64,000 nt of DNA. Source: Actinomycetota bacterium. GTDB lineage: Bacteria; Actinomycetota; UBA4738. The notes under the pieces were generated by a model, which ran no database searches, was not told the DNA's origin, and worked only from the letters and a program-made list of their open reading frames with translations. Below, one piece after another: positions 23,762-49,430 of this stretch. A program made the translations under genes and the position numbers. The DNA lies in NCBI GenBank assembly GCA_035573915.1, contig DATLZQ010000002.1:2333-66332 (forward strand), written 5' to 3'. Position 1 is the first letter of the stretch. Each line of letters opens with the position of its first letter.

Positions 23762-23812
23762 GGCCGGGAGCCGCGCCGGGCCCGCCGGTACAATGGGTCT
23801 TCGGTAGGGTCG

Positions 23813-34080: not shown

Positions 34081-34306
34081 CCGATCGGTCCCTCGTATCT
34101 TCCGACCCCCGACCGGCGCCCGCATCGGACCTTCGACCTAACTTGGCGGTGACGGCCACGAGGCCGGCTCCCGGGGCCGCCCGGGGTGGCCCGCTCCTTG
34201 AATTCGCTGGCAGCGGCCCCTATCCTTGCGGTGGCTTCCCCTGAGGTCGGCTTCGGAGCCGCCTTGCCCGGGGCGCGCTCCAGGCCCCGAGCGGAAAGGA
34301 GCGTGC

Positions 34307-35800
34307 ATGGCCACCTGGGCACCGCCGCGCCCTGCCACGGCCGGCGAGAACTTCCTCGACCGCTACTTCCGGATCTCGGAGCGGGGGTCGACGGTCCGCA
34401 CGGAGCTCATCGCCGGTGCGGCCACGTGGCTCACCATGGCCTACATCATCTTCGTCAACCCCTCCATCCTGGGCACCATCCCGGACCGGCTGGGGAACTT
34501 CGTCTCCGGCGGGCCCCAGTTCGAGGCGGGGAAGGTGGCCGCGGCCACCGCCCTGGTGGCCGGGGTCCTGACCCTGCTCATGGGGGTCTACGCCAATTAC
34601 CCCTTCGCCATGGCCGCCGGCCTGGGCCTCAACGCCTTCGTCACCTTCACCCTGGTGGGGACGTTCCAGCTGACCTGGCCCCAGGCCATGGGGGTCATCG
34701 TGTGGGAGGGGCTCATGATCACCCTCCTCGTCCTCACCCGGTTCCGCGAGTACGTGATGGACGCCATCCCCATGGACCTCAAACGGGCCATCGGCGTGGG
34801 GATCGGGGCGTTCATCGCCTTCATCGGGCTGGTCAACGCCGGGATCGTCGTCCACCCGGAAGCCGGGCCCATCGTCACCCTCAACCCCGACCTCCGAAGC
34901 CTCAAGATCCTGGTCTTCGTCATTGGCCTGGCCATCACGATGATCCTGGTGGCCCGCCGGGTGAAGGGGGCCCTGCTCGGGGGCATCGTCCTCACCACCG
35001 TCGTGGCGGCCATCATCAACGTGGGCTTCACCGGCTCCACTCTGTACCCGCCCGGGGTGGCCGAGCTCCCGGAGCGGATCGTCTCCGTCCCCGACCTGTC
35101 CATCGTCGGGAACTTCTCCCTGAACCTTCAGGGCATCGCCATCGGGACGGCCATGGCCCTGGTCATCTCGGTCATGCTGTCCGACTTCTTCGACACGATG
35201 GGGACCGTGGTGGGGATTGCGGGGGAGGCCGGGCTCCTGGACCGGGAGGGCAAGCTCCCGGGGATCCAGCGGGTCCTGCTGGTGGACTCGCTGGGAGCGG
35301 CCGCGGGCGGCGCCGCCTCGGTCTCCTCCAACACCACCTACATCGAGAGCGCGGCCGGCGTCTCCGAGGGCGGCCGGACCGGCCTGACCTCCGTGGTGAC
35401 GGCGGTCCTGTTCTTCGCCGCCCTGTTCCTGGCCTCCCTGGCCGGTACCATTCCCTCGGAAGCCACGGCCCCAGTCCTCATCATGGTGGGCTACTTCATG
35501 ATGACCATCGTGAAGGACATCAACTGGTCCGACGCCGCCCTGGGGATCCCGGCCCTCGTCACCATCCTCATGCAGCCCCTCACGTTCAGCATCACCAACG
35601 GGGTGGGAGCGGGGTTCATCGCCTACACTGTGATCCGGCTCCTCCAGGGGGACGGGGTCCGGGATACGGCCTTCTTCCTCGGGGCCCTGGCCCGTGGGCG
35701 GTGGGCCGAGCTGCGGGACCGGCAGTGGCGCCTCCACCCGATCATGCTGCTCGTGTCGGGTATCTTCGGCTGGTACTTCTGGAAGGGACTGCTGGCCTGA
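34307..35800 (+). CDS. NCS2-family purine permease (AzgA-like adenine/guanine/hypoxanthine permease)
   Basis: ATG 34307 after GAAAGGAGCG. 497 aa, about 13 TM, AzgA-type N-terminus [18 protein letters not shown]. Confidence 0.8.
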
Positions 35801-35816
35801 GGCGCCGAGACCCGGG

Positions 35817-35851
35817 GACGGAAGGGGGCGCCTCCGGGCGCCCCTTCCGTC
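35817..35851 (+). terminator. Strong stem-loop (16/15-nt arms, loop TCCG) between permease and next gene
   Basis: GACGGAAGGGGGCGCC tccg GGCGCCCCTTCCGTC. Near-perfect inverted repeat immediately after the permease stop. No U-tract. Confidence 0.45.
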
Positions 35852-35876
35852 TGAACCGAACGAAACGGAGGACCGG

Positions 35877-37385
<1,509 letters not shown>

Positions 37386-37674
37386 GCCGGTCCCCGGCCC
37401 GCGCTACGCCCGGCCCCCGGGGCCGTCCTCCAGCTCGACCCTGGTGACGACCTTGGTGGCCCCTCGGGCGAAGGCCACCCGGTGCACCCGGTCCAGCAGG
37501 GCCAGGACGTCCTCGAGGGGCCCCCGCACGGTGGTCCCCAGGGGCCCCACGTCCGCTTCCAGACCCGAACGCCGGGTCTCTTCCAGGGCCGCCTGCACGT
37601 AGGGCTCCAGCCGCTCGGTGACGAAGGGGTAGATCGTGAACTCCCCCACGGCCACCGGGTCCCGCCGGCCCATC

Positions 37675-40036
37675 TCAGTCCGCCTCCTCCGTCGGTTCGC
37701 GATGCGGCCTGGCCGGCCCGCCCAGCCAGGAGACCAACTCGTCGACGGTGAGCGCCGGGGAGACATCTGGCCACAGGGCCATGGAGAGCGACACGACTGC
37801 GGGGGGCTCGAGGCTCGCCCGCTTCAAGAGTTCGCAGTCGGCGAGAACCACGCGGGGGTCGCCGTCCGCTTCGAGCGTTCCATCCCGCATCACCAGGACC
37901 CGTGTCGCGAACTCCGCCGCCAGCTCCAGGTCGTGGCTCACCACGAGCAGGGCCAGCCCCAGCCGCTCTCGGAGCTCCTCGAGCTCCTCGAACAGGTGTC
38001 TGGTCTCCCGTTCGTCGAGACCGGCGGTGGGCTCGTCCAGGATGAGGACCGTGGGATCCATGGTAAGGAGGGCGGCGATCGCCAGCCGACGGGCCTCAGA
38101 CCGGGTCATCGCCAATGGGTTCGCCTCGAGGCTGAGACGGAAGCGCGACGCCTCGCGTTCCACAGCCTCCTCGACGCGGTCCTCCTGCCAGCCAAGGTTC
38201 CGCGGCCCGAAGGCCAGTTCCTCCCGGACGGTAGGGGCGATTACCTGGAGCGTCGGTTCCTGAAACACGTACCCGACCCTCACCCCGTCCCCACGCCACA
38301 CCGAGCCACTTTCTGGGTCCAAGGCGTCGGCGAGGAGCAGGCTCAATGTCGTCTTCCCAGACCCGTTGGCTCCGAGGAGGAAGCAGAACTCGTGTGAGCG
38401 GAGGTCCAGGGTGACCCCACGGACCGCGGGCGGGCCACCGGGGTAGCGAAAGGTGAGCCGTTCGCAACGAAGCAGGAGGGTACCGTCCCGACGGTTGCGG
38501 AGTTCGGGGACGGGCCGGGTGCCAGCCCTCGATGCGAGGACCCGAGCGGCCTCGGCAGGCGTGAGCGGGAGGTCGAGGTGCAGAGCGGCTCCAATCCTCT
38601 TGAGCTGAGGGATGCGGGCGCGGGCGATGTCCATCCAGTGAGTCTCACGGAGCCCCTCTCCGTCCAGGGACGCGACCAGGCGTCCGCGGTCGAGCAGGAT
38701 GGCCTCGTCCAGGGCCTGCTGGAACTCAGCGACGCTCGGGTCGGTGAGCAGGACCGTGCGCTGCTCACGGGCGCCCAGTCGGCTGTGGACCATCTCGAGC
38801 GCCTGCGTCACTTCTCGGCGGCCCTGGGGATCCAGGTGAGCTGTGGGCTCGTCCAGCAGGAGGAGAGCCGGGCGGCTGGCGAGGGCAGAGGCGAGCTGGA
38901 CCCGTTGCATTTCCCCTCCAGACAGTTTGAGGGTCGACCGCCCGAGGAATGTCGCGTCCAGGCCGACCAGCTCCAGCGCCTCGGCGGCGCCGGTCCGGTC
39001 GCTCATGGCGAAGGGGTTGACGGCGTGTTCGAGCTCGTCCCGGACGGTCAGCCCGACCAAGCCGTGTACGGGATCCGGGAAGACGTACCTGGCCACCTGA
39101 GCGAGCTCGGCCATCGTCCGCCGTCGGGTATCGTGGCCACCAACGAGCACACGCCCGCGCATTCGACCGAGGCCGTGAGGAACGAGCCCGCTGGCGGCCA
39201 GGAGGAGCGTGGTCTTACCGGCATCGGTGGGCCCGGCCACCAACACGGTCCGGCCCCACGGAATGCTCAGGGAGAGACTGTCGATGGCCAGCCGCTCCGG
39301 GGGGTCTTCCTCGCTGTACGTGACCGACAGATCCTCGACGCGGAGCGCCTCGAGGCCCGACACGGAGATCCTTGAGCCTCGGCCCAGGATGCCTCTGCTG
39401 TCGACTGCCAGCGCCTGGGTGTGGACACGGTTGATGAGGCGAGCCATGAGCGGCATGGCCAGGGTTCCGTAGCCACGGATCCGACGGAGCACCGGCCCCC
39501 GGTCCAGTGCCAACCCTCTGACCCGCAGCGCCCGGACGGCCGTCTCGAATTCGAAAGCGAAGATATCGATGTAGCGCAGGACCACCATGACGTAGAGGAC
39601 GACCTTCCGCGGGGCGCCCAGTCCGCGGACGCCGGCCAGGATGTCCTCCTTCGTGGTTACCGCGATATAGGCGATCGACACGAGCATCATCGCGGCGATG
39701 CGGGCGGCGAGCAGGCCTCCCCGTTCGAAGCTGGTGGCGGAGACACGGAAGATGCCGTACGGGCGGGCCTCCGGGCCGGCAGCGGTGAGAGCGTTGCTTG
39801 CAAGGGTCAGGAGCGCGGTGACCAAGCATCCGACCAGGAGGACCCGGGGGTATCGGCGGCCGGTGAGCAGCAAGAGTGCGCCGATCCCCAAGGCGGTCAG
39901 GACCCAAGGCCAGTTGAAGGCCAACGCGGCAAAGATGCTCAGGACGACGTAGACGAGAAGGCGGGGAGCTGGAGGAAGCCTCCCGAGCCCCCCGGCCCTG
40001 AGTCGCGCGGAGTTCAGCTCGCTGTCGGGCCTCAAT
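37675..40036 (-). CDS. ECF transporter energizing module: fused T (EcfT/CbiQ-like) + two ATPase (EcfA-like) domains
   Basis: TTG start at 40036 overlaps the S-component stop (TTGA). About 230-aa multi-TM T domain, then NBD1 (GPTDAGKTTL, LSGGEMQRV, LLLDEPTAHLD) and NBD2 (GANGSGKTTL, ...LILDEPTAGLD). Confidence 0.7.
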
Positions 40037-40817
40037 CCACCGGCCTCCAGACCAGCCGGAGGCGCTTCATCTCGCGGTGGAATGCCCACAGGACCGCAAT
40101 CCCGAGGCTCCCTGCCACCGTGTCCCCCAGGAACCAACCGGGGAAGACGAGGGAGAAGGCCGCCCGGTACCCCATCCCTCCAACCGTGGCCCAGGCCACC
40201 GCGCCGAGGATCGCGCTGGCCAGGCTGGAGAGCACCACCGCGAGGACCGCCAGGACGATGTCCCGGTTCACGGTGAGGTTGCGGGCGCCGAGGAGGTAGA
40301 GGAGCCCCCAGCCGACCAAGGTGAGGCCGAAGGCGACCGCGTAGCCCCAGCGTCCCAACACCGGACCGACCAGGTAGCCGCCAACCATGGTGATGACGAT
40401 GCTGGCGACGACGGCGAGGATCCCGAGGAGCACCTTGGCGCTTGGAACGCCGGAGGCACCGCCGCCCACGCGCACTCGGAAGAGCCTGAACAGCGCCCAG
40501 GCGAGGAGGGTATTGCCGAAGAAGGCCGGAATGGGGTTTTGCGCGAAGTTGATAGCCAGGGCGCTCCCGGCGAGCGCTCCCCCGAGGAACGTCCCGACGG
40601 CTGCTGCCAGCCACCCGTACGGGCCGAGCCAGATGGCGCCCGTGACCATGAAGATCTGGGGAAGCCAGAAGAAGCTTGCCCCGAAGGCCCCCGGGATGGA
40701 GAGGAACTGGCTGGAGAGCCAGGCGGCGGGGACGATGGCCGCCGCCCAGAGGGCCGAGGCCACGAACAGCCTGGTTTGGTTCGTGGGGCCACTGTAGTCG
40801 TACTGGGCCGTTGCCAT
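40032..40817 (-). CDS. ECF transporter S (substrate-capture) component, substrate unknown
   Basis: ATG 40817 after GAAGGGAGG. 261 aa, about 6 TM, small hydrophobic integral membrane protein directly upstream of the T-A-A gene. Confidence 0.6.
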   Translation of the reverse strand: MATAQYDYSGPTNQTRLFVASALWAAAIVPAAWLSSQFLSIPGAFGASFFWLPQIFMVTGAIWLGPYGWLAAAVGTFLGGALAGSALAINFAQNPIPAFFGNTLLAWALFRLFRVRVGGGASGVPSAKVLLGILAVVASIVITMVGGYLVGPVLGRWGYAVAFGLTLVGWGLLYLLGARNLTVNRDIVLAVLAVVLSSLASAILGAVAWATVGGMGYRAAFSLVFPGWFLGDTVAGSLGIAVLWAFHREMKRLRLVWRPVD

Positions 40818-40877
40818 TGCCTGCCTCCCTTCACTTGCCGACCACTCCACCGCGCCTGCAGCGGGACTGTGATCCGA

Positions 40878-41684
40878 TCATCTCTTTGGCGCCCGCAGTT
40901 CGGTCAGCTCTCTGAGTGGAGGGATCCGCTCCACCATGCCGGGTTCCAGCAGCTCCCAGTTGATTCCGCTGGGCTTCTCATGCGTGAGCGGGGGCCGGAG
41001 GACCCGCGTGGGGGTAACGATCACGTCCACGACCGTGTCGAAGGGCCGGGGTTGAACGTCGACGTCGACCACTTGACAGTCGTGCACAATGGCGACGACG
41101 GGTGTGTCGTCGGCAACCAGCCCCACCTCGCGGAACATGCCCCACTCGAGGTCGAAGTATCCGTGGCCCTTTCCGAAGCGGAGCCCGCCGGTGCTGATCG
41201 CCGCAGCGCCCGTGAGGAGCAAATCCAGCCGTGGGCCCGAGGCGAGCTCGCGCAGGCTGACGGGGTGGCCCACGTAGTCGAGCCCGTCCAGGGTGGCGGC
41301 ATACGGAACGCGCGACGGCTCCACGCTCCCGGTCGGTACGAAGAGGAACCCGCGTTCGATCCCGTAGGTAGAGACCAGGAGGTCCTTCCCGTCCTCCATG
41401 CACAACTGACGGATCAGGGTGAGACCGTTGTCCGGGGTGACGAAGACGACCCGGGCGCGCCGGTACTCGGGTAGGTCTCTCACGGCCTGCGCGCACCGGT
41501 CACTGCCCTCGAAGTCGGGGATGAACTCGCTAAAATTCCAGTGGAAGCGGGAGTCGGGACGGGCCACCCGCATGAGTTCCGACCAGACTCGCTGACGCAC
41601 GAGTTCCTTCTCCTCCCGGTCCCTGATGTCCGGGGGACTCGGAGTCCGGTCAGTCCCAGTCATCGTCTTTCCACCTCGCTTCAT
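40878..41684 (-). CDS. 5-formyltetrahydrofolate cyclo-ligase (5-FCL/MTHFS)-like family protein, stand-alone
   Basis: GKGHGYFDLEW, VTPDNGL, paralogous (about 50% identity) to the C-terminal domain of the upstream GntR fusion. ATG overlaps the upstream stop (ATGA). Confidence 0.7.
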   Translation of the reverse strand: MKRGGKTMTGTDRTPSPPDIRDREEKELVRQRVWSELMRVARPDSRFHWNFSEFIPDFEGSDRCAQAVRDLPEYRRARVVFVTPDNGLTLIRQLCMEDGKDLLVSTYGIERGFLFVPTGSVEPSRVPYAATLDGLDYVGHPVSLRELASGPRLDLLLTGAAAISTGGLRFGKGHGYFDLEWGMFREVGLVADDTPVVAIVHDCQVVDVDVQPRPFDTVVDVIVTPTRVLRPPLTHEKPSGINWELLEPGMVERIPPLRELTELRAPKR

Positions 41685-42691
41685 CCGGACAGGGCCCGGG
41701 CCCAGGAGGACCCGAGCAGGGCGAAGTACGTCCCAGGCTTGACGAGGTCCGGGGGGATCCGGTCCCAGAAGATGCCGTCGGGCTTGGGGAGCGGCGGCTC
41801 GCAGCGGAGTACTCGGGTCGGGGTGACGATGACGTCAACCGTCACGTCGTAGGGAGCGTGCGCCACGGCCTGGTCGATGACCTGGCAGTCGTGGACGGAC
41901 ACGATGACGGGTGTGCGCTGACTCACGAGGTCGAGTTCGCGGAGCAGCGCCCACTCGAGGTCCAGGAAGCCGTGGCCCTTTCCGAAGTGGACACCCTCCC
42001 TCGTCACGGCGGCCGCCCCGCTCACCACCGCGTCGACTCTCCCCAGTCGGACCAGCCGCTCGAGGGAGAGGTACGTTCCGAACCGCTCCATGGCGTCCAG
42101 CGTCGCGGCGAGCTCAAGGGCGCTCGGACGCAGGCGACGAGGGTCGAGGAGGACGAACCCACGGCGCATGGCGTAGGTAGCGACCACGAGGCGCTTTCCG
42201 TCAGCCAGCGCCTGGTGTCGGAACTGCTCCAGGTTGTTGTCGGGGGCCACGAACAGAAGGGACGCGGAGCGGTACTCCGGCAGTCGCCTGAGGGTTCGGG
42301 TGCACCGGTCGCTGCCCTCGAAGTCGGGGATGAATTCCCGGAAGTCGAAGTCGAAGCGGGAGTCGGGACGGGCAACCGCTCTGAGCTTGCTCCACACCGC
42401 CCTGCGCAGCTTCGCGGCCGGGTTGACGAACGTCCCGCGCCCCGGCTCTCGCCACAGGAGGCCTTCGCGTTCGAGTTCTGCCAGAGCTCGCCGCACCGTC
42501 CCCCGGCTCACCCGGAAGCGCTGGACCAGACTCCACTCGGCCGGGAGGGGGCGGTCGTCCTCCAGGGGGGACTCCAGGATTGCACGCTCGAGCTCGCGGG
42601 CCACGCGCACGTAGAGCGGGAGCCGTCGGGTGTCGGCACCAGGGTCGCTCCCGGTCAGGGGCACCGCTCTCCACCGCCGAGGGAGAGGCAT
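41681..42691 (-). CDS. GntR-family transcriptional regulator with C-terminal 5-FCL-like effector domain
   Basis: N-terminal wHTH (LPLYVRVARELERAILESPLEDDRPLPAEWSLVQRFRVSRGTVRRALAELEREGLL). C-terminal 5-FCL fold (FGKGHGFLDLEW). ATG at 42691 has no SD and sits in an AT-rich patch (possibly leaderless). Confidence 0.7.
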   Translation of the reverse strand: MPLPRRWRAVPLTGSDPGADTRRLPLYVRVARELERAILESPLEDDRPLPAEWSLVQRFRVSRGTVRRALAELEREGLLWREPGRGTFVNPAAKLRRAVWSKLRAVARPDSRFDFDFREFIPDFEGSDRCTRTLRRLPEYRSASLLFVAPDNNLEQFRHQALADGKRLVVATYAMRRGFVLLDPRRLRPSALELAATLDAMERFGTYLSLERLVRLGRVDAVVSGAAAVTREGVHFGKGHGFLDLEWALLRELDLVSQRTPVIVSVHDCQVIDQAVAHAPYDVTVDVIVTPTRVLRCEPPLPKPDGIFWDRIPPDLVKPGTYFALLGSSWARALSG

Positions 42692-42713
42692 GTTTAGACA
42701 TTCATACACATGT
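42690..42713 (-). promoter_or_regulatory. Candidate GntR operator overlapping the gntR-like start: ATGT-N4-ACAT (42690-42701) plus ACATGT palindrome (42708-42713); TATGAAT -10-like element
   Basis: Matches the GntR GT-N-AC inverted-repeat pattern. Lies in the only AT-rich stretch of an 80-bp intergenic region directly at the regulator's start codon. Confidence 0.35.
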
Positions 42714-42771
42714 ACCCGGTCCCGCGCAAGCGGCAAGGAACGATACGCCGTGAGCCCCGGTACGGTGACCT

Positions 42772-44535
42772 TCAGGCCTCGAGGGGGACGAGCTCGAAGC
42801 GGACCGTGTCCACCAGGCCCCGGTCCGTGATCTTGAGCTCGGGGATCACCGACAGGGCCAGGAACGACATGGCCATGAACGGGGAGGGCAGGGTGACGCC
42901 GAGGCCCCGGGCGGCCTCCTCCAGGTGCTCCACCGCCGCGGCCACCTCCTCGGCGGGCCGGTCCGAGAGGAGCCCCCCGATGGGGCAGCGCACCTCTCCT
43001 ACGACCTGCCCCCCGGCCACCGCCACCTGCCCCCCGCCCACCCGGGCCAGGTGGTTGACGGCGGCCGCCATGTCGGCCTCGTCCACCCCTACCACCACCA
43101 CGTTGTGGGCGTCGTGGGCGTGCGTGGAGGCCAGGGCGCCCCGGCGGAGCCCGAACCCCGTGACGAATCCCAAGCCCACCCGCCCCGTCCCCCGGTGGCG
43201 TTCGACCACCGCGATCTTGGCCAGGTCGCGGCCGGGGTCGGCCACGGCCTGCCCGTCCCGCCGGGCCGGCTCGGCCACCAGGGCCCGGGTCACGATCTGC
43301 CCCGGCTCCACCCCGATCACCCGGACCCGGCCGTCGGCCCGGACGGAGAAGGCCTCCGCCATGAGCTCGGGCACCCGGACGCTCCCCCGCATCCAGGCTG
43401 GCGCCTCCACCCTGGGCACGCCCAGGGCCACCCCGTCCCGCGCCACCAGCCGCCCTCGCTTCCAGACGAACCGTGGCCGGAAGGACGAGAGGTCCGGGAC
43501 CGCCACGATGTCTGCCAGGTACCCGGGGGCCACGGCCCCGTGTCGCCACAGGCGGTGGTAGCGGGCCGCGTTCAGGGTCCCCAGGGCCACGGCCACCTCG
43601 GGCGGGCAGCCCAGGGCCACGGCCCTTCGGACCACGTCGTTGACGTGCCCCTCCCGCAGGAGCTGGTCGGGCTCGCGGTCGTCGGTGCAGAGGAGGCAGT
43701 TGGTGGACCCGTACCGGAGGACCAGGGGGAGGAGGGCCTCGAGGTTCCGGGCGGCGGAGCCCTCCCGGATCATGATCCACATCCCCAGCCGGCGCTTCTC
43801 CAGGGCCTCCTCGAACGTGGTGCACTCGTGGTCGCTGCTCACCCCCCCCGCGAGGTAGGCGTTGAGGGCCTTGCCGGACAGCCCCGGGGCGTGGCCGTCC
43901 ACGTGACGGTCCCCGGCCCGGCGGGCGGCCTCGATCTTGGCCAGGATGGCCTCCTCCCCGGCCACGGCGTTGGGGTAGTCCATGAGCTCGGCCAGGCCCA
44001 GGGCCCGCCGCTCCTCGGCCAGGAACCGCTCGATGTCCGGGGCCTCCACCGTGGCCCCGTTGGACTCGAAGGGGCTGGCCGGGACGCAGGAGGAGACCAT
44101 CACGTAGTAGTCGAGGGGGACCCCCTCGGCCAGGCGGAGCAGGGCCTGCACCCCCTCCAGCCCGAAGACGTTAGCCACCTCGTGGGGGTCCAGGACGACC
44201 GTGGTCGTCCCCCAGGGGAGGACGGCCCGGGCGAACTCGTCCACCATGAGCTTGGTGGACTCGAGGTGCATGTGGCCGTCGATGAACCCGGGCAACAGGA
44301 CCAGGCCGGAGGCGTCCACCGTCTCTCGCCCCTCGTAGCGGCCGAGCCCAGCCACGTACTCCCCGGCCACGGCCACGTCGGCCTCAAGGAGCTCGCCCGT
44401 GAAGACCGAGAGGACCCGGGCGCCTTTGATGACCAGGTCGGCCGGCTCGTCCCCCCGGGCCACGGCCAGCCGATGGGCGAGGTCCCTCGTCTCCTCCGCG
44501 CCGCTCACGTCCCCACCGTCCTGGTTGGCAGACAT
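42772..44535 (-). CDS. ade: Adenine deaminase (amidohydrolase superfamily)
   Basis: ATG 44535 after GGGAGGGGA. 587 aa. FIDGHMHLESTKL metal-binding motif typical of Ade. Confidence 0.8.
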   Translation of the reverse strand: MSANQDGGDVSGAEETRDLAHRLAVARGDEPADLVIKGARVLSVFTGELLEADVAVAGEYVAGLGRYEGRETVDASGLVLLPGFIDGHMHLESTKLMVDEFARAVLPWGTTTVVLDPHEVANVFGLEGVQALLRLAEGVPLDYYVMVSSCVPASPFESNGATVEAPDIERFLAEERRALGLAELMDYPNAVAGEEAILAKIEAARRAGDRHVDGHAPGLSGKALNAYLAGGVSSDHECTTFEEALEKRRLGMWIMIREGSAARNLEALLPLVLRYGSTNCLLCTDDREPDQLLREGHVNDVVRRAVALGCPPEVAVALGTLNAARYHRLWRHGAVAPGYLADIVAVPDLSSFRPRFVWKRGRLVARDGVALGVPRVEAPAWMRGSVRVPELMAEAFSVRADGRVRVIGVEPGQIVTRALVAEPARRDGQAVADPGRDLAKIAVVERHRGTGRVGLGFVTGFGLRRGALASTHAHDAHNVVVVGVDEADMAAAVNHLARVGGGQVAVAGGQVVGEVRCPIGGLLSDRPAEEVAAAVEHLEEAARGLGVTLPSPFMAMSFLALSVIPELKITDRGLVDTVRFELVPLEA

Positions 44536-44570
44536 TATGCGCGATCCCCTCCCGCTGGGTGACGGCCGGC

Positions 44571-45566
44571 TCAGGCGTACCCGCCCATGGTCAGGGCCAT
44601 GAGCGCCTTGCCCGTGTGCAGCCGGTTCTCGGCCTCGTCGTAGACGACGGACTGGGGCCCGTCGATGACCTCGTCGGTGACCTCGTGGCCCCGGTCCGCG
44701 GGCAGGCAGTGCATGTACAGGGCGTCCGGCCTGGCCAGGGCCATGCGCCGGGCGTCGCAGATCCAGTCCCGGTGGCGCTCCGAGGTGGCCAGGGCCGCCC
44801 GCTCGTCGGCGAAGAGGTCCAGCCGCCCCCAGGACTTGGGGTAGACGACGTCGGCCTCCCGGAAGGCCTCGTCCATGTCGTGGACGACCGTCACGCCCCC
44901 CCCTCCCTCCTCCGCTGCCCGCCGGGCCTTGTCCATGGCCTCCGGCATGAGGTCCCAGCCCTCCGGGTAGGCGAGGACCACGTCCACCCCGAACCGGGGG
45001 AGCAGCATGGCTAGGCCCTGGGGGACGGACAGGGGCTTGGCGTAGGAGGGGGCGTAGGCCCAGGAGACGGCCACCCGCAGTCCGCGCAGGTCCTGTCCCC
45101 GCTTCTCCCGGATCGTCATGAGGTCGGCCAGGGTCTGGGTGGGGTGGTCCACGTCGCACTGGAGGTTGATCACGGGGACCTCGGCCCACCGGGCCACCTC
45201 CCGCATGTAGGCGTTGCCCTCGTAGGGCACGAGGTCGTGGCGGATGGCGATCCCGTGGCCGTAGCGGGAGAGGATGATCCCCATGTCCTTCGGGCTCTCC
45301 CCGTGGGCCACCTGCGTCTTCTCGGCGTCCAGGTAGTGGGCGTGGCCCCCCAGCTGGGTCATGCCGGCCTCGAAGGCGTTGCGGGTGCGGGTGGACTTGT
45401 CGAGGAACAGCATGAACAGGGTCTTGTCCGGGAGGAGCCGGTGGGGCTCCCCCCGGCGGAACTTCTCCTTGAGCTCGACGGAGACCGCCAGGGCCTCCTC
45501 GATCTCCTCCACCGTCCAGTCGAAGGTCTCGATGTAGTCCCGCCCGGCCAGGGCCCTGCGGTCCAC
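44571..45566 (-). CDS. ygeW: YgeW-like knotted carbamoyltransferase (OTCase/ATCase superfamily), substrate unknown
   Basis: Collinear similarity to E. coli YgeW (FLDKSTRTR, GNAYMREV, VINLQCDVDHPTQ, WAYAPSYAKPLSVPQG, ALYMHCLPAD). Start assigned to the GTG at 45566 after a perfect AGGAGGTGA SD; N-terminus uncertain. Confidence 0.75.
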   Translation of the reverse strand: MDRRALAGRDYIETFDWTVEEIEEALAVSVELKEKFRRGEPHRLLPDKTLFMLFLDKSTRTRNAFEAGMTQLGGHAHYLDAEKTQVAHGESPKDMGIILSRYGHGIAIRHDLVPYEGNAYMREVARWAEVPVINLQCDVDHPTQTLADLMTIREKRGQDLRGLRVAVSWAYAPSYAKPLSVPQGLAMLLPRFGVDVVLAYPEGWDLMPEAMDKARRAAEEGGGGVTVVHDMDEAFREADVVYPKSWGRLDLFADERAALATSERHRDWICDARRMALARPDALYMHCLPADRGHEVTDEVIDGPQSVVYDEAENRLHTGKALMALTMGGYA

Positions 45567-45631
45567 TTCCGTCACCTCCTCCGGGTCGTTCGCGGGCTCG
45601 CTCTCCTCGGCAATCTGGGTCCGGACCGGGG

Positions 45632-48031
45632 TCAGCCGTGGCGGGCCACGGCGCCCAGGCCCACGTACTCGGGGACGGGCCGCTGGCCCGGGACCCGCGG
45701 CGACGGCGGCCACGGCTGGCGGGGCCGGACGGGGCCCGACAGCCCCACCAGGTCGTCGGGGCGGACCGGGATCCGGTTCAGCTCTCGCCCCGTGGCCGCC
45801 CGCAGGGCGGCCACGACGGCCGCAGGGGCCACGATGGTGGAGGGCTCGCCCACGCCCTTGGCCCCGAACGGCACCCCCGGCTCCGGCTCCTCCACGAGCG
45901 ACGAGCGCACCGGCGGCATGTCCAGGATGGTGGGGATGAGGTAGTCGGTGAAGGACGCGTTGCGGATCCTCCCCCCGTCGAGCTGGAGCTCCTCCATGAG
46001 CGCCAGGCCCAGGCCCATGGCCGAGCCCCCTTCCACCTGGCCCTCGACCATCTGCGGGTTGATGGCCCGGCCCACGTCCTGGGCCACCGCCAGCTCCACC
46101 ACCCGCACCAGCCCCAGCTCCTCGTCCACCTCGACCACGGCCCGGGCCGCGGCGAAGGTGAACGTCACGTGGATGTCCCCCTGGCCCTCCTCGTCGAAGG
46201 TCGTGGTGGGCCGGTGGTGGTACTCGCGGGTGGCCTCGATGGGCTCCCCCAGGAACTCGGCCACCGGGGCCACGGGCACCCCGTCCGCCATGAGCTCCCC
46301 GTCGGCCACCGTGAGCTCGGCCCCCTCCAGGTCGGGCCGGGCCTGGCGGGCCCTGGCCACGAGCTCCTCCAGGACCGCCCGACAGGCCGCCTCCACCGCG
46401 CCCCCCGTCATCATGGTCTGGCGGGAGGCGGAGCTCGACCCAGCCGAGCCCACCAGCGTGTCCGGCGGGTGGAGGACCACGTCCTCCACCCCCAGGACCG
46501 TGCGGGCCACCTGGACCACCACGGTGTGGACCCCCTGCCCGACCTCGGCGGCGGCGGTGTGGACCTCCGCCACCGGCCGGCCGTCGGACCCCAGGGAGAG
46601 CCGGACCCGGGCCGTGGAGTAGTCGTCGAACCCCTCGCTGTAGCCCACGTTCTTGTAGCCTGCGGCGTAGCCCACCCCACGGCGGAGCCCCTCCCCTCGG
46701 CCCACGTTGCCCGCCACCCCGCCGGGCAGCGTGATGGGGTCCCGGCGGCCCCGGGCGTCCACCGGTTCGGGCTGAGGGAGGGGGGCGGCCCGCACCCGCT
46801 CCAGGAGCTCCCGCACTGGGGCCGTGCCCCGGATCACCTGTCCGGTGGGGAGGACCGACCCCGTGCCCACGGCGTTGCGCAGCCTGAGCTCCACGGGGTC
46901 CAGCCCCAGTTCCCGGGCCAGCTTGTCCATCTGGGCCTCGTGGGCGAAGGCGGCCTGGACGGCCCCGAACCCTCGCATGGCGCCGCAGGGCGGGTTGTTC
47001 GTGTAGACGGCCGTCCCCTCGATGAAGGCGTTGGGGACCTCGTACGGCCCGCAGGCGAAGGTGGAGGCGTTGGCGATCACGAACGGCGAGGAGGACGTGT
47101 AGGCCCCACCGTCGATGAGGAACCGGCAGCGCACCGCCACCAGCCGCCCGTCCCGGGTGGCCCCCGTCCGCATCCAGATCCGGGCCGGGTGGCGGTGGAC
47201 GTGGCCGAAGAAGGACTCCTCCCGCCCGTAGGACATCTTGACCGGTTTCCCGGTGTGGAGGGCCAGGAGGCAGGCGTGGATCTGCATATGGACGTCCTCC
47301 CGGGACCCGAAGGCCCCGCCCACCCCGGCCAGGTGCAGGCGGACCTTCTCCTCGGGGAGGCCCAGCACGGGGGCGATCTGCTGGCGGTCCACGTGGAGCC
47401 ACTGGGTGGCCACGTACAGGTCGACCCCGCCGTCCTCCGCCGGGACCGCCAGCCCAGCCTCCGGCCCCAGGGGAGCCTGGTCCTGCATGCCGGTCTCGTA
47501 GTAGCCCTCCACCCAGACGTCGGCCCGGGCGTCGGGGTGCCCGTGCACGATGCGCACGTGGCGCACCACGTTGCCGAACTCGTGGACCTGGGGGGCGCCA
47601 GGTTCGAGGGCCTCCTCCATGTCGGTCACGGCCGGCAGGGGCTCGTAGACGACCCGGATGCGCTCCGCGGCCCGGCGGGCCTGTTCAGGGTGCTCGGCCG
47701 CCACCAGGGCCACGGGCTCCCCGGCGTAGCGGACCCGGTCCCAGGCCAGGACCGGCTGGTCGGGGTAGTCGAGGCCGAAGGTCTTCCGCCCCGGGATGTC
47801 CGAAGCGAGCAGGACGGCGTGGACCCCCGGGGCCGCCAGGGCCTCCGAGATGTCCACCGAGACGATGCGGGCGCTGGGGTGGGGGCTACGGAGCGTGTGG
47901 CCCCAGAGCATGCCCTCCGCCCACAGGTCGCTCCCGTAGGCGAAGGCCCCCTTGACCTTGGGGACCCCGTCCACCCGCCGGACGCTCTCCCCGACCCCCA
48001 GCCGCGCCCGTTCGGCGACCCGCTCGCTCAC
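45632..48031 (-). CDS. Xanthine-dehydrogenase-family molybdopterin-binding large subunit (XdhB/CoxL-like)
   Basis: GTG 48031 after GGAGGGAGG overlaps the upstream stop (GTGA). About 800 aa with Ald_Xan_dh_C/C2 signatures (GGAFGSRED, TNNPPCGAMRGFG). Confidence 0.85.
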   Translation of the reverse strand: MSERVAERARLGVGESVRRVDGVPKVKGAFAYGSDLWAEGMLWGHTLRSPHPSARIVSVDISEALAAPGVHAVLLASDIPGRKTFGLDYPDQPVLAWDRVRYAGEPVALVAAEHPEQARRAAERIRVVYEPLPAVTDMEEALEPGAPQVHEFGNVVRHVRIVHGHPDARADVWVEGYYETGMQDQAPLGPEAGLAVPAEDGGVDLYVATQWLHVDRQQIAPVLGLPEEKVRLHLAGVGGAFGSREDVHMQIHACLLALHTGKPVKMSYGREESFFGHVHRHPARIWMRTGATRDGRLVAVRCRFLIDGGAYTSSSPFVIANASTFACGPYEVPNAFIEGTAVYTNNPPCGAMRGFGAVQAAFAHEAQMDKLARELGLDPVELRLRNAVGTGSVLPTGQVIRGTAPVRELLERVRAAPLPQPEPVDARGRRDPITLPGGVAGNVGRGEGLRRGVGYAAGYKNVGYSEGFDDYSTARVRLSLGSDGRPVAEVHTAAAEVGQGVHTVVVQVARTVLGVEDVVLHPPDTLVGSAGSSSASRQTMMTGGAVEAACRAVLEELVARARQARPDLEGAELTVADGELMADGVPVAPVAEFLGEPIEATREYHHRPTTTFDEEGQGDIHVTFTFAAARAVVEVDEELGLVRVVELAVAQDVGRAINPQMVEGQVEGGSAMGLGLALMEELQLDGGRIRNASFTDYLIPTILDMPPVRSSLVEEPEPGVPFGAKGVGEPSTIVAPAAVVAALRAATGRELNRIPVRPDDLVGLSGPVRPRQPWPPSPRVPGQRPVPEYVGLGAVARHG

Positions 48032-49430
48032 CCCGACCTCCCTCCGCCCCTCGGCCGGATCTCCAGCCCGGCGATGCGGCGGGCCACCCTCCGGCCCTCC
48101 TGGGCGATGGTCTCCTCGTCGGCCGTGACGAGGTGGCCGTCCCGGACCACCGGGCATCCCTCCACGAACAGGTGGCGGACCCGCCGGGGCGCGCAGTGGA
48201 GGAGGGCCGCCACCGGGTCGGTCTCGGCGCCCGCGAACTCCAGCCCCTCCACGGAGAACAGGGCCACGTCGGCCCGCTTCCCCGGCTCCAGCGAGCCGAG
48301 GTCGTCCCGGCCCAGGCAGGCCGCCCCGCCCCGGGTGGCCACCCGGAGGGCGGCCCGGGCGTCCAGGGCCCCGGGGTCGCCCCCGGCCCGGGCCACGAGC
48401 ATGCCCACGCGGGCCTCAGCCAGCAGGTGGCCGGCGTCGTTGGAGGCGGAGCCGTCCACCCCCAGGCCCACGGTGGCCCCCGCGTCCAGCAGGTCCCGGG
48501 CCCGGGCCACGCCCGCCCCCAGCCGGAGGTTGGAGGTGGGGCACCACGCCACCCCGGCCCCGGCCTCCGCGACCCTTCGGACGTCCCGCTCGTCCAGGTG
48601 CACGCAGTGGGCCAGCCAGACGTCGGGGCCCAGGAACCCGAGGTCCTCGAGGAGCTCAAGGGGCCGGCGCCCGAACCGCTCCCGGCAGTAGGCCTCCTCG
48701 TCCCGGGTCTCGGCGACGTGGGTGTGGAGGCGGACCCCCAGCCGCCGGGCCAGCTCCGCCGACTCCTTCATGAGGCGCTCCGTGGCCGAGAACGGCGAGC
48801 AGGGGGCCACCGCCACCCGGAGCATGGCCCCCGGGGACGGGTCGTGGTAGCGGGCCACGGCGGTCTCGGTCTCGGCCAGGACCCGGTCGGTGTCCTCCAC
48901 CACGGAGTCCGGAGGGAGACCGCCCCGGGAGGCCCCCAGGTCCATCGAGCCCCGGCAGGGGTGGAACCGCAGCCCCACCTGCCGGGCCGCGTCCATCTCG
49001 GCCTCCAGCAGGCCCGACACGCCGGGGGGGAAGACGTAGTGGTGGTCGGCGGTGGTGGCGCACCCCGAGAGGGCCAGCTCGGCCAGGCCCACCGCGGCCG
49101 CGGCCCGCTCCCACTCCGGGTCCAGCCCGGCCCACACCGGGTACAGCTCGGTGAGCCACCCGAACAGCCCCTTGGTCTGGGCCCGGACCCGGGTGAGGCA
49201 CTGGTAGAGGTGGTGGTGGGCGTTGACCAGGCCCGGGAGGGCCACCGTCCCCCGGCCGTCCACGTGTTCGGCCTCCTCCGCGCCCGGCGGCTGGCCCGTC
49301 CCCACCCAGGCCACCTGCCCGTCCCGCAGGAGGAGCGACCCGCCGGGGAGCTCGGTACCCCGGTCGTCCATGGTCACGACCACCTCGCACCCCTCGATGA
49401 GGACGGGCCGGGCCCGCGGTTCGCCCACGC

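What the first reader, a model, noticed from the sequence alone, without database searches (positions are those of the whole stretch)
37675..42713. GntR regulator with 5-FCL-like effector domain, a 5-FCL-like paralog and an ECF transporter (S component plus fused T-A-A): candidate undescribed regulon
Four tightly coupled minus-strand genes: (1) a GntR wHTH fused to a 5-formyltetrahydrofolate-cyclo-ligase-like domain (41681-42691); (2) a stand-alone paralog of that same domain, about 50% identical (ATGA overlap); (3) an ECF S-component; (4) a single polypeptide with EcfT-like TM domain plus two EcfA ATPase domains (TTGA overlap with the S gene). A 5-FCL fold used as the ligand-sensing domain of a GntR regulator, next to its duplicated catalytic-type paralog and a dedicated vitamin-type ECF importer, suggests sensing and import or salvage of a folate- or thiamin-related metabolite. 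5-FCL paralogs have been linked by comparative genomics to a cryptic role in thiamin metabolism.
Basis: partly seen in the sequence, partly recalled or inferred. Interest (0 to 1): 0.8.

Follow-up and report, generated by a model that had tools for sequence, protein, structure and literature searches.

The report
Sensor-controlled importer with 5-FCL-like enzyme
A five-gene actinobacterial operon joins a vitamin-type (ECF) importer to an enzyme from a widespread family of unknown function (relatives of human MTHFSD) and to a repressor that senses its signal with a disabled copy of that enzyme, which gives a practical way to find out what the family does.

Summary
There are five tightly coupled minus-strand genes, not four: a GntR regulator fused to a 5-FCL-fold domain, a stand-alone paralog (52% identical), a membrane protein with an ECF S-component fold but no known family, a fused EcfT-EcfA-EcfA' protein, and a missed 89-aa Thiamine_BP (PF01910) gene.

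The 5-FCL-like proteins are not folate enzymes. They belong to the MTHFSD/COG0212 paralog clade, whose function is unsolved.

In 21 of 21 HTH-fused copies the arginine matching human MTHFS R145 is histidine. Every stand-alone copy scored keeps arginine. So the regulator looks like a pseudo-enzyme sensor.

A conserved HutC-type palindrome (AAnGTnTAnACnTT; window 42689-42702) sits at the regulator's start in 17 or more loci.

Among 57 related loci with adequate flanks, 52 place the enzyme next to a transporter of one of six interchangeable types. Seventeen of 111 loci also carry an adenine or adenosine deaminase. No TPP riboswitch was found in 44 loci.

The substrate is probably an aminopyrimidine or purine-type base. 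A thiamin-pyrimidine substrate is possible; a folate is unlikely.

This is a new variant of known kinds, and a good experimental entry point.

The parts
42689..42702 (-). Candidate operator AATGTCTAAACATG. It has a HutC-type GT-N-TA-N-AC core (42692-42699) and overlaps the regulator's ATG (42691).
   Evidence: It is the only intergenic GTNTANAC in the 64-kb window. The same 14-bp palindrome, AAnGTnTAnACnTT, lies just upstream of the orthologous regulator gene in 17 or more loci from GC-rich genomes. In L025 and L028 it lies upstream of the SBP gene that heads the operon. Binding has not been tested.
41681..42691 (-). Regulator: a GntR winged helix-turn-helix (residues about 26-89) fused to a 5-FCL-fold, MTHFSD/COG0212-type domain (about 95-320). 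The catalytic Arg is replaced by His235.
40878..41684 (-). Stand-alone 5-FCL-like enzyme of the MTHFSD/COG0212 paralog clade. It keeps Arg30, the invariant PDN motif (84-86), Arg169, G-K-G-H-G and Asp178.
   Evidence: PF01812 4e-16. It is 52% identical to the regulator domain. The closest named eukaryotic relatives are 'methenyltetrahydrofolate synthase domain-containing protein'. The start may instead be ATG 41663, which is preceded by GAGGTGGA.
40032..40850 (-). Substrate-capture (S) component of the ECF transporter. It belongs to a new family (here 'S_long'); the likely start is ATG 40817 (261 aa).
37675..40035 (-). Fused energising module EcfT-EcfA-EcfA' (786 aa). The signature motif of the second ATPase domain is degenerate.
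   Evidence: CbiQ 6e-17 and two ABC_tran domains. ECF_ATPase_2/_1 models score 5e-87 and 7e-77. The fusion is conserved in L007, L009 and L011. LSGGQ is replaced by MTRSE/LSPAQ in domain 2 of all four proteins.
37404..37673 (-). Small cytoplasmic ligand-binding protein of the Thiamine_BP / MTH1187-YkoF-like superfamily (89 aa).
   Evidence: PF01910 E 7.6e-14, 51.9 bits against a cut-off of 24.9. TIGR00106 scores 36.6 bits, below its cut-off of 54.7. There is a one-base gap after the T-A-A stop, and GGAGGAGG lies upstream. No relative of it was detected in any of the other loci screened by tblastn/blastp.
42772..44541 (-). Adenine deaminase, 80 bp upstream on the same strand. It is a likely functional partner, though not shown to be co-transcribed.
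   Evidence: TIGR01178 'ade' scores 589.6 bits against a cut-off of 472.5. Pfam gives Adenine_deam_C 1e-64. ADE-type or NF006850-type deaminases sit in or next to the enzyme-transporter operon in 17 of 111 loci, across the NCS1, NMT1-ABC and ECF transporter types.

Best explanation
This is a substrate-inducible uptake-and-conversion operon for a small heteroaromatic base of the aminopyrimidine or purine type.

Proposed mechanism:
1. A dedicated group-I ECF transporter imports the compound. It consists of a new S component and a single EcfT-EcfA-EcfA' polypeptide.
2. A small Thiamine_BP-fold protein probably holds the compound in the cytoplasm.
3. The stand-alone 5-FCL-like enzyme (MTHFSD/COG0212 clade) transforms it in an ATP-dependent step. 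That step is chemically related to formyl activation and ring closure by 5-FCL.
4. The neighbouring adenine deaminase probably acts in the same route.
5. Expression is controlled by the GntR protein. Its HutC-like winged helix binds the palindrome AATGTCTAAACATG over its own start and promoter and represses the operon.
6. Its effector domain is a duplicate of the enzyme. It keeps the whole ligand and nucleotide pocket but has the catalytic Arg (human MTHFS R145) changed to His. It therefore binds the substrate, with or without ATP, without turning it over, and releases the DNA.

Shown here: gene content, folds, family placement, the R-to-H switch, operator conservation and the transporter and deaminase associations.

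Inferred: repression, ligand-induced release, ATP dependence, the direction of transport and the chemical identity of the substrate.
For: Anatomy and coupling.

Family placement: phmmer over 1.84 billion representatives finds 1537 clusters. The named animal hits are MTHFSD-like, and full-length alignment shares the hallmark motifs. Solved 5-FCLs match only weakly by sequence (E 0.15 to 0.004).

Pseudo-enzyme sensor: about 50 columns are conserved at 85% or more in both 16 enzymes and 38 regulators. Inside the domain only one differs: R169 in the enzymes (100%) against H235 in the regulators (97%). That column aligns with human MTHFS R145. R145Q abolishes MTHFS activity (PMC10910211). In the census, stand-alone copies have R, and 21 of 21 HTH-fused copies have H.

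Operator. The DNA-binding domain is closest to NagR/YvoA and DasR.

Enzyme-transporter module: 52 of 57 loci with at least 2.5 kb of flank on each side have a transporter within 5 kb. The types are NCS1 (23), NMT1/THI5-like SBP ABC (12), S_long ECF (6), QueT-like short-S ECF (6), SSF (4) and YkoE-type ECF (3).

Base or nucleoside theme: adenine deaminase (TIGR01178) or NF006850 adenosine-deaminase-family genes lie in or next to the operon in 17 of 111 loci, across three transporter types. IU-nucleoside hydrolase, PfkB kinase and ADP-ribosylglycohydrolase recur. Two phosphoribosyltransferases lie upstream in a Patescibacteria locus. The window itself sits in a purine-catabolism neighbourhood.
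Against: - No ligand, activity or DNA binding has been measured.
- His in place of Arg might retain some catalysis.
- The census is biased. Its loci were seeded from this window's proteins, and the 80 metagenome loci are those most similar to the window's enzyme. The frequencies therefore describe this bacterial subfamily only.
- The Thiamine_BP gene, YkoE-type S components, NMT1/THI5-like SBPs and NCS1 permeases all have thiamin-pyrimidine members, so a thiamin-related substrate is not excluded.
- No sigma-70-like promoter or intrinsic terminator was detected by the simple scans, so the transcript boundaries are inferred from gene spacing.
- The adenine deaminase is upstream of the operator in the window, so its co-regulation there is uncertain.
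Confidence: 0.65

Rival explanations
1. Thiamin-pyrimidine salvage. The operon imports HMP, formylamino-HMP (FAMP) or a thiamin breakdown product, as ykoFEDC, cytX and thiXYZ do. The 5-FCL-like enzyme processes it, and the regulator senses it.
For: The Thiamine_BP gene is in the operon. The three main transporter families next to the enzyme each include a predicted or proven HMP/FAMP carrier. NCS1 includes CytX and PLUTO (PMC5874261). The NMT1/THI5-like SBPs appear. YkoE-type S components (PF09819) occur in some loci. [quoted passage not shown] PLUTO is co-expressed with COG0212.
Against: No TPP riboswitch was found in the window or in 44 related loci, about 550 kb in total, including the YkoE-, NMT1- and NCS1-type loci. 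No thiamin biosynthesis or salvage enzyme family recurs in 4 or more of 111 neighbourhoods, whereas adenine and adenosine deaminases and nucleoside enzymes do. The window's S component is not YkoE, ThiT or ThiW. From my memory of Pribat et al. 2011, direct assays with thiamin-related substrates were negative.
Confidence: 0.25
2. Folate salvage. The stand-alone protein is a true 5-formyl-THF cycloligase, the regulator senses 5-formyl-THF, and the ECF system imports a folate.
For: There are Pfam PF01812 matches. Databases annotate the proteins as '5-formyltetrahydrofolate cyclo-ligase'. The phosphate-binding G-x-G-x-G-Y/F-x-D loop and the Arg residues are conserved.
Against: The NCBIfam MTHFS_bact equivalog scores 27 bits against a cut-off of 84.9. 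phmmer against solved 5-FCLs gives E 0.15. The segment that holds the pterin-binding residues in human MTHFS (around E61; PMC10545881) is replaced by an invariant P-D-N motif. The clade groups with MTHFSD/COG0212, which is reported to lack 5-FCL activity. None of the six transporter types is a folate carrier family. The S component is not FolT.
Confidence: 0.03
3. Bifunctional enzyme-repressor. The fused protein is still catalytically active, as BirA or NadR are, and the stand-alone copy is a second isozyme or a partner subunit. In that case the R-to-H change alters specificity rather than killing activity.
For: All other pocket residues, including the Mg/ATP-binding Asp and the Gly-rich loop, are retained in most regulators. 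Relatives often carry two enzyme copies or a tandem-fused double (531-538 aa), which suggests hetero-oligomers.
Against: The single systematic change is at the residue whose mutation inactivates human MTHFS. A sub-group of regulators also alters the loop, from GKGHG to GGGDG. A stand-alone Arg-bearing copy accompanies the regulator in every locus mapped far enough downstream except L027 and L016, where the regulator is followed directly by an ABC ATPase (L027) or a deaminase gene (L016).
Confidence: 0.15
4. Export or detoxification. The transporter and enzyme remove or neutralise a toxic base analogue rather than salvage a nutrient.
For: From my memory of Pribat et al. 2011, a salvage or detoxification role was proposed for COG0212. 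The degenerate second ATP site is reminiscent of some exporters.
Against: ECF transporters, NCS1 symporters and SBP-dependent ABC systems are importers by architecture, and the presence of an SBP implies uptake. Downstream catabolic or salvage enzymes (deaminases, PRTases, nucleoside hydrolases) also fit import.
Confidence: 0.05

Closest known systems
COG0212 / MTHFSD paralogs of 5-formyltetrahydrofolate cycloligase (Pribat et al. 2011, Funct Integr Genomics 11:467; Arabidopsis At1g76730; animal MTHFSD)
   Same: The stand-alone enzyme aligns end to end with animal and protist MTHFSD-like proteins (31-34% identity, E about 1e-30). It shares the hallmark motifs R-x-x-x-W, (R/F)IP(N/D)F-x-G, PD, G-x-R-x-GKG-x-G-x-x-D-L-E and VHD-x-Q. 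As reported for that family, it clusters with transporter families that have thiamin-pyrimidine members.
   Different: This bacterial subfamily has its own RPDSRFH insert and an invariant PDN motif. It is fused to a GntR DNA-binding domain in Actinomycetota. Here its strongest enzyme association is with adenine or adenosine deaminases, not thiamin enzymes. No function is known for any member of the family.
MocR-type GntR regulators (GabR, PdxR): a GntR wHTH fused to an enzyme-fold effector domain
   Same: The design principle is the same. A GntR winged helix is fused to a domain descended from an enzyme (an aminotransferase in MocR), which binds the metabolite but no longer carries out the normal reaction.
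   Different: The effector fold here is 5-FCL (NagB/RpiA/CoA-transferase-like superfold), not fold-type I PLP. The catalytic paralog is encoded immediately downstream. The DNA-binding domain and operator are HutC-like.
HutC subfamily of GntR (NagR/YvoA, DasR, PhnF)
   Same: These are the best matches to the wHTH (E 1e-13). The operator core GT-N-TA-N-AC and its palindromic architecture also match.
   Different: The defining UTRA effector domain (PF07702) is absent and is replaced by the 5-FCL-like domain. L008 shows the alternative arrangement: an ordinary GntR-UTRA regulator in front of the same enzyme-ECF module.
ykoFEDC HMP/thiamin ECF system of Bacillus and Thermotoga TM0483-0486
   Same: Both are dedicated ECF transporters with duplicated ATPase domains and a small YkoF/MTH1187-superfamily binding protein in the operon.
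   Different: The S component is not YkoE (PF09819). T, A and A' are fused into one protein. The binding protein is of the PF01910 type. There is no TPP riboswitch; a protein regulator is used instead. A 5-FCL-like enzyme is present.
QueT (PF06177), the ECF S component for queuosine precursors
   Same: A shorter S family found next to the same enzyme in 11-12 census loci gives a weak QueT match (E 3e-5, below the cut-off). That family is related to the window's S family (hhalign probability 93.6%).
   Different: The window's S protein has no QueT match itself and is about 70-90 residues longer, with extra helices.
DeoR/SorC regulators, whose sensor domains use the same ISOCOT superfold
   Different: The DNA-binding domain family is different (GntR). 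The sensor is specifically a 5-FCL/MTHFSD-type domain that retains a nucleotide-binding loop.

Membership tests
GntR superfamily of transcription factors | N-terminal winged helix-turn-helix matching PF00392 | tested here: met
   PF00392 E 2.2e-17, 62.9 bits against a cut-off of 27, full model 1-64.
HutC subfamily of GntR | C-terminal UTRA effector domain (PF07702) | tested here: not met
   There is no UTRA hit. The C-terminal domain is PF01812 with a 5-FCL fold.
HutC subfamily of GntR | Palindromic operator with a GT-N-TA-N-AC core | tested here: met
   GTCTAAAC lies at 42692-42699. The same core is conserved upstream of orthologues in 17 or more loci. This is sequence conservation only; binding was not tested.
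Canonical 5-formyltetrahydrofolate cycloligase (EC 6.3.3.2, MTHFS/YgfA) | Scores above the curated equivalog cut-offs (TIGR02727 MTHFS_bact; NF007661) | tested here: not met
   The stand-alone protein scores 27.0 bits against 84.9 and 22.3 against 343. The regulator scores 26.2 against 84.9.
Canonical 5-formyltetrahydrofolate cycloligase (EC 6.3.3.2, MTHFS/YgfA) | 5-FCL three-dimensional fold | tested here: met
Canonical 5-formyltetrahydrofolate cycloligase (EC 6.3.3.2, MTHFS/YgfA) | Phosphate/ATP-site residues (human R14, R145, G147/149/151, D154) | tested here: met
   This applies to the stand-alone enzyme, where R30, R169, G171/173/175 and D178 are invariant. In the regulator the R145 equivalent is His in 97% of sequences, so this feature is not met there.
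Canonical 5-formyltetrahydrofolate cycloligase (EC 6.3.3.2, MTHFS/YgfA) | Pterin-binding segment (human L56-S57-M58 to E61) | tested here: not met
   An invariant P-D-N occupies these columns. The E61-equivalent position is variable in the enzymes (T/S/E). The alignment is at low identity, so this is moderately secure.
Canonical 5-formyltetrahydrofolate cycloligase (EC 6.3.3.2, MTHFS/YgfA) | 5-formyl-THF cycloligase activity | not testable with these tools
   This needs an enzyme assay or ygfA complementation.
MTHFSD / COG0212 5-FCL paralog clade | Closer to named MTHFSD/COG0212 proteins than to canonical 5-FCL, over the full domain | tested here: met
   Animal 'methenyltetrahydrofolate synthase domain-containing protein-like' sequences P0400 and P0430 match at E about 1e-30 to 5e-29 over residues 22-263. 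By contrast, E is 0.15 to YqgN. The alignment shows shared motifs. No Arabidopsis or Haloferax reference sequence was available to me.
ECF (energy-coupling factor) transporter, group I (dedicated) | EcfT (CbiQ) transmembrane component | tested here: met
   PF02361 E 6.2e-17, residues 19-216 of the fused protein.
ECF (energy-coupling factor) transporter, group I (dedicated) | Two EcfA-type ATPase domains | tested here: met
   There are two ABC_tran domains. TIGR04521 and TIGR04520 score 291.5 and 258.5 bits, below the single-protein cut-offs of 330 and 315. The signature motif of domain 2 is degenerate.
ECF (energy-coupling factor) transporter, group I (dedicated) | S component with the six-helix S fold, encoded next to T and A | tested here: met
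Any described S-component family (ThiT, YkoE, ThiW, FolT, RibU, BioY, QueT, ...) | Match to the family's profile | tested here: not met
   None of the 22 members hits an S-component family at E up to 10 in Pfam; the only recurrent hit is a weak MASE1 match. NCBIfam gives no hit for the window protein.
ykoFEDC-type thiamin/HMP system | TPP (THI-box) riboswitch upstream | tested here: not met
   There is no Rfam hit at gathering threshold, or at E up to 5, in 37000-43200. None was found in 44 related loci.
ykoFEDC-type thiamin/HMP system | YkoF/MTH1187-superfamily binding protein in the operon | tested here: met
   PF01910 scores 51.9 bits against 24.9. The score is below the NCBIfam TIGR00106 cut-off (36.6 against 54.7).

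The most novel reading that the evidence does not exclude
The MTHFSD/COG0212 enzymes may be ATP-dependent formamidopyrimidine cyclo-ligases. They would re-close ring-opened purines, such as 4,6-diamino-5-formamidopyrimidine (FapyAde) to adenine, by the same chemistry that 5-FCL applies to 5-formyl-THF. That chemistry is phosphorylation of the formamide oxygen followed by attack of the neighbouring amine. 5-formyl-THF is itself an N5-formylated 5-aminopyrimidine.

On this reading the operon imports a Fapy-type base, converts it to adenine and hands it to adenine deaminase or to phosphoribosyltransferases. The GntR pseudo-enzyme senses the Fapy base.

The idea would explain four observations:
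- two non-homologous adenine/adenosine deaminase families are exchanged in the operon;
- nucleobase-type transporters accompany the enzyme;
- one GTP-cyclohydrolase-II-5FCL-like fusion exists (P0392);
- the family occurs in all domains of life, as expected for a damage-salvage enzyme.

None of this has been tested. It rests on gene context and chemical analogy only.
Probability: 0.12. Interest if true: 0.9.

Novelty: new variant of a known kind. Interest (0 to 1): 0.68.

Why it matters
The MTHFSD/COG0212 paralog of 5-FCL occurs in bacteria, archaea, plants and animals. From my memory of Pribat et al. 2011, it is embryo-essential in Arabidopsis. Human MTHFSD is an RNA-binding protein studied in connection with ALS (PMC5773659, listed; not read). 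The family has had no known reaction since it was singled out in 2011.

This locus gives a direct experimental handle. The regulator carries an almost unchanged copy of the enzyme's pocket and has a defined 14-bp operator. The unknown substrate can therefore be sought by ligand-dependent DNA release or thermal shift, rather than by guessing a reaction.

The work also yields four further results:
- a GntR effector-domain type not in the usual list (FadR, HutC, MocR, YtrA, AraR, PlmA, DevA);
- an ECF S-component family with no profile in Pfam or NCBIfam;
- a fused T-A-A' module with one degenerate ATP site;
- evidence that the 'thiamin' association of this family may really be an association with aminopyrimidine or purine-base transport and adenine deamination.

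Tried and rejected
- Riboswitch control was looked for in the window with Rfam at gathering threshold and at E up to 5, and in 44 related loci. Nothing relevant was found. The only hits were tRNAs and an unrelated c-di-AMP riboswitch 7 kb away in L065 and L072.
- Sequence searches of solved structures with the 5-FCL-like proteins gave only marginal 5-FCL hits, so no close structure exists.
- The Pribat et al. 2011 paper could not be read. What I say about its 19% clustering figure, the Haloferax TMP phenotype and the negative assays comes from memory.
- Pfam on 20 long fusion proteins of the family was meant as a Rosetta-stone test. Most have no second domain. The exceptions are one RRM (animal MTHFSD), one amine-oxidase N-terminus and one GTP cyclohydrolase II.
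- The simple sigma-70 promoter and intrinsic terminator scans found nothing.
- Neighbourhood clusters present in only 2-3 loci were inspected by eye. They were aldehyde dehydrogenase, thiolase, LysR, a histidine kinase and an AdoHcy-hydrolase-like protein, with no thiamin genes. They were not run through Pfam.
Only its 3' 14 bp are conserved.

Full report
**1. What is in the sequence**

The window is about 72% G+C. The regulator is 100% identical to a protein annotated from an Actinomycetota metagenome-assembled genome (P0001).

Between 37404 and 42702 the minus strand carries five genes with almost no spacing.

- The regulator (41681-42691) has a GntR winged helix (PF00392, E 2e-17) followed by a PF01812 '5-FTHF_cyc-lig' domain (E 1e-10).
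- Its TGA overlaps the ATG of a 268-aa PF01812-only protein (40878-41684, E 4e-16).
- After a 27-60 nt gap comes a 261-272-aa polytopic membrane protein with no Pfam or NCBIfam match (40032-40850; the likely start is ATG 40817, behind GGGAGG).
- Its TGA overlaps the TTG of a 786-aa protein with CbiQ/EcfT and two ABC_tran domains (37675-40035).
- One base after that stop, behind GGAGGAGG, an 89-aa gene (37404-37673) matches Thiamine_BP (PF01910, E 7.6e-14).
- The fused domain and the stand-alone protein are 52% identical over 226 residues.

**2. Folds**

An AlphaFold model of the regulator was built on 38 homologues (pLDDT 89.9, pTM 0.85).

- Next come other members of the same superfold (eIF2B, RpiA, CoA-transferases, DeoR-C) and the GntR wHTH structures.

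The membrane protein model has pLDDT 85 and pTM 0.82.

- Foldseek found nothing for it.
- It is an S component by fold and by position, but of a family that no profile library describes.
- The family has 59 homologues, all 'hypothetical'.

**3. Which 5-FCL-like family**

By sequence the proteins are far from true 5-FCL. The MTHFS_bact equivalog scores 27 bits against a cut-off of 84.9. phmmer to YqgN gives E 0.15, and a family profile reaches solved 5-FCLs only at E 0.004-0.008.

An exhaustive phmmer search of 1.84 billion cluster representatives found 1537 clusters at E 1e-3 or better, and 798 at 1e-10 or better. The named eukaryotic members among the strong hits are 'methenyltetrahydrofolate synthase domain-containing protein-like', that is MTHFSD, one of them with its RRM domain.

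They align with the window's enzyme over the whole domain. The shared motifs are R-x-x-x-W, (R/F)IP(N/D)F-x-G, PD, G-x-R-x-GKG-x-G-x-x-D-L-E, VHD-x-Q and P-x-GI-x-W.

This is the 'COG0212 paralog of 5-FCL from all domains of life'. The literature lists it as not a 5-FCL, lacking detectable 5-FCL activity, and linked to thiamin by comparative genomics (PMC3223725; PMC5041015; PMC4120688). I found no later paper that assigns it a reaction.

**4. The regulator is a disabled copy of the enzyme**

I aligned 16 stand-alone enzymes from five phyla, 38 regulators and human MTHFS. The human sequence was recalled from memory and then checked. It is 203 aa long, and all 11 residue identities named in PMC10545881 and PMC10910211 matched.

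- About 50 columns are conserved at 85% or more in both groups.
- Inside the domain exactly one differs: Arg169 in 100% of enzymes against His235 in 97% of regulators.
- This column is human MTHFS R145. Its R145Q substitution causes enzymatically confirmed MTHFS deficiency (PMC10910211).
- In a motif census of all fetched loci, every stand-alone copy scored had Arg and 21 of 21 HTH-fused copies had His. The two apparent exceptions are regulators truncated by contig ends.
- The N-terminal Arg (human R14), the Gly-rich loop, the Mg-binding Asp (human D154) and the family-specific PDN and RPDSRF motifs are all retained in the regulators.

The simplest reading is a pseudo-enzyme sensor. It keeps the enzyme's pocket and so its ligand specificity, and it lacks turnover.

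**5. The operator**

The wHTH is most similar to HutC-subfamily proteins NagR/YvoA and DasR. Upstream regions of 17 orthologous regulator genes from different actinobacterial MAGs (58-72% G+C) each contain an AT-rich 14-bp palindrome, AAnGTnTAnACnTT, just before the start codon. Examples are AACGTCTAGACGTT, AATGTCTATACATT and AAGGTTTAAACCTC. The site is often duplicated eight bases upstream.

The window's site is AATGTCTAAACATG at 42702-42689. Its GT-N-TA-N-AC core is the only intergenic match in the 64 kb.

In L025 and L028 the regulator is the second gene of the operon, and there the site moves to the front of the first gene. This is good phylogenetic footprinting for autoregulation. The position over the start and the -10 region suggests repression. 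Binding itself is inferred.

**6. What is conserved around it**

Three sets of loci were collected.

- The look-up of encoding contigs and a scan of one genome per GTDB species gave 37 loci.
- Three alphaproteobacterial loci (two from isolate genomes, one from a metagenome contig) were added.
- A metagenome scan added 80 more.

After removing duplicates, 111 loci carry a 5-FCL-like gene of this subfamily.

The exact window arrangement recurs only in L007 (66-73% identity). Two sub-modules are widespread.

(a) Regulator, then one or two enzyme copies (often fused into a 531-538-aa tandem), then a transporter. This occurs in about 20 actinobacterial loci. The transporter is usually an NCS1 permease. 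In Sphaerisporangium and a Mycobacterium MAG it is instead an NMT1/THI5-like SBP with an ABC ATPase and a double permease.

(b) Enzyme, then S, then T-A-A. This occurs in cyanobacteria, Patescibacteria and others.

Of the 57 loci with at least 2.5 kb on both sides, 52 (91%) have a transporter within 5 kb. The types are:

- NCS1: 23
- NMT1-SBP ABC: 12
- the window's S family: 6
- a shorter, QueT-like S family: 6
- SSF: 4
- YkoE-type S: 3

The window's S family and the short family are related (hhalign 93.6%). Such free exchange of six transporter types next to one enzyme is the signature of an import-then-convert module.

Regulators are exchanged as well. L008 has GntR-UTRA, and the alphaproteobacteria have a divergent RpiR/SIS gene.

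**7. What the substrate might be**

*For thiamin pyrimidine:*

- The Thiamine_BP gene is in the operon.
- NCS1 (CytX, PLUTO), NMT1/THI5-like SBPs (ThiY) and YkoE all have HMP or FAMP carriers among their members (PMC5874261; the ThiY and YkoE roles are from my own knowledge).

*Against thiamin pyrimidine:*

- No TPP riboswitch was found in the window or in 44 loci covering all transporter types, about 550 kb.
- No thiamin enzyme family is among the recurrent neighbours.

*What recurs instead:*

- Adenine deaminase occurs in 4 loci including the window, all above the TIGR01178 equivalog cut-off.
- An adenosine-deaminase-family enzyme occurs in 13 loci. All four that were tested score above the NF006850 cut-off.
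- These deaminases are placed as the last gene of the operon or divergently, and they accompany the NCS1, NMT1-ABC and ECF versions alike.
- Also recurrent are IU-nucleoside hydrolase (5 loci), PfkB kinase (6) and ADP-ribosylglycohydrolase (4).
- Two phosphoribosyltransferases lie upstream in the Patescibacteria locus.
- The window's own neighbours are an adenine deaminase, a carbamoyltransferase, a molybdenum hydroxylase, a PLP enzyme and a xanthine/uracil permease. This looks like a purine-catabolism neighbourhood.

Two unrelated deaminase families replacing each other argues that adenine, or a close analogue, lies on the pathway.

I therefore place the substrate in the class of 4-aminopyrimidine or purine-type bases, which includes HMP-like compounds. 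I do not commit further. A folate is unlikely (section 3).

The census is biased toward relatives of this window's proteins. It says nothing about the archaeal or eukaryotic members of the family.

**8. Mechanism proposed**

Steps and their status:

- Import by the S/T-A-A' ECF complex. The architecture is shown; the direction is inferred from the family.
- Cytoplasmic capture by the Thiamine_BP-fold protein. Inferred.
- ATP-dependent conversion by the Arg-bearing enzyme. The conserved phosphate site is shown; the chemistry is inferred.
- Possible deamination of the product or precursor by adenine deaminase. Inferred from context.
- Repression by the GntR pseudo-enzyme at the palindrome, relieved when the same compound fills its pocket. 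Site conservation and the R-to-H change are shown; the rest is inferred.

**9. Comparison with what is known, and novelty**

The nearest known designs are:

- MocR-type GntR regulators, for the principle of an enzyme-fold effector domain;
- HutC-type regulators, for the DNA-binding domain and operator;
- ykoFEDC, for the dedicated ECF transporter with a small binding protein;
- the COG0212-transporter clusters noted in 2011.

The new elements are the GntR-5FCL-like fusion with its single catalytic-site switch and defined operator, an S-component family with no profile in Pfam or NCBIfam, the fused T-A-A' with a degenerate second signature motif, and the deaminase association.

I rate it a new variant of known kinds.

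Its value is practical. It turns the open question 'what does MTHFSD/COG0212 bind and do?' into a ligand screen on a DNA-binding sensor.

Noticed in passing
window 37675-40035 (second ATPase domain, about residues 640-650); also L007:7113-9497, L009:7887-10196, L011:7866-10223: In all four fused EcfT-A-A' proteins the ABC signature motif of the second ATPase domain is degenerate (MTRSE, VSPAE, LPPAQ or LSPAQ instead of LSGGQ), while that of the first is canonical (LSGGE). In the cyanobacterial and Patescibacteria proteins the first domain also has Walker A Lys changed to Arg and DD instead of DE after Walker B. This implies one consensus and one degenerate ATP site, which is unusual for ECF transporters.
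   Followed up: partly
window 42772-48157 (minus strand) and 34304-37385 (plus strand): The operon lies in what looks like a purine-catabolism neighbourhood. It holds adenine deaminase (42772-44541), an aspartate/ornithine-carbamoyltransferase-family gene (44571-45560), a large ORF that by eye resembles a xanthine-dehydrogenase molybdenum subunit (45632-48157; not profiled), a convergent 502-aa PLP-dependent enzyme (35877-37385) and a xanthine/uracil permease (34304-35800).
   Followed up: partly
window 42604 versus 42691: The public annotation of the identical protein (P0001, 307 aa) starts at GTG 42604. That start removes the first four residues of the Pfam GntR domain and the conserved 'PLY-x-x-V' N-terminus seen in all homologues. 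The real start is further upstream: ATG 42691, possibly leaderless, or GTG 42664.
   Followed up: yes
L001:9035-10642, L004:9041-10636 and proteins P0009, P0013, P0017, P0018, P0025, P0034: Many actinobacterial relatives carry a 531-544-aa protein made of two tandem 5-FCL-like domains in place of one or two separate genes. L008 has two adjacent separate copies. This suggests the enzyme works as a (pseudo)heterodimer.
   Followed up: partly
protein P0392 (570 aa, Logan contig of 1929 bp): This is a single fusion of GTP cyclohydrolase II (PF00925, E 4.5e-34) with a C-terminal 5-FCL-like domain. From my own knowledge (not checked here), GTP cyclohydrolase II works through a formamidopyrimidine intermediate, which is suggestive for the substrate chemistry. 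It is only one cluster, of unknown origin.
   Followed up: no
protein P0301 (1810 aa; member P0449 from a MMETSP protist transcriptome): A eukaryotic protein with seven matched stretches to the 5-FCL-like domain, that is, a multi-repeat array of this domain.
   Followed up: no
alignment A1 (S-component family): Eleven of 22 members give weak Pfam MASE1 (membrane sensor domain) hits, best E 1e-3. This may hint at a remote relationship between MASE1 and ECF S components, or it may be compositional noise.
   Followed up: no
L038:5927-6787, L039:6056-6904, L104:7032-7880, L106:3349-4203: In alphaproteobacterial versions of the enzyme-NMT1-ABC operon the divergent regulator is RpiR-type (HTH_6 + SIS). 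That family usually senses phosphosugars. A phosphosugar or ribosylated intermediate may therefore be involved in those lineages.
   Followed up: no
L065:1011-1147 and L072:1121-1256: c-di-AMP riboswitches (RF00379, 105 and 99 bits) lie about 7 kb upstream of the 5-FCL-like/SSF loci. They are probably unrelated to the module.
   Followed up: no
window 16513-16680 and 23803-23891: Three tRNA genes. These are the only Rfam matches in the whole window at gathering threshold.
   Followed up: no
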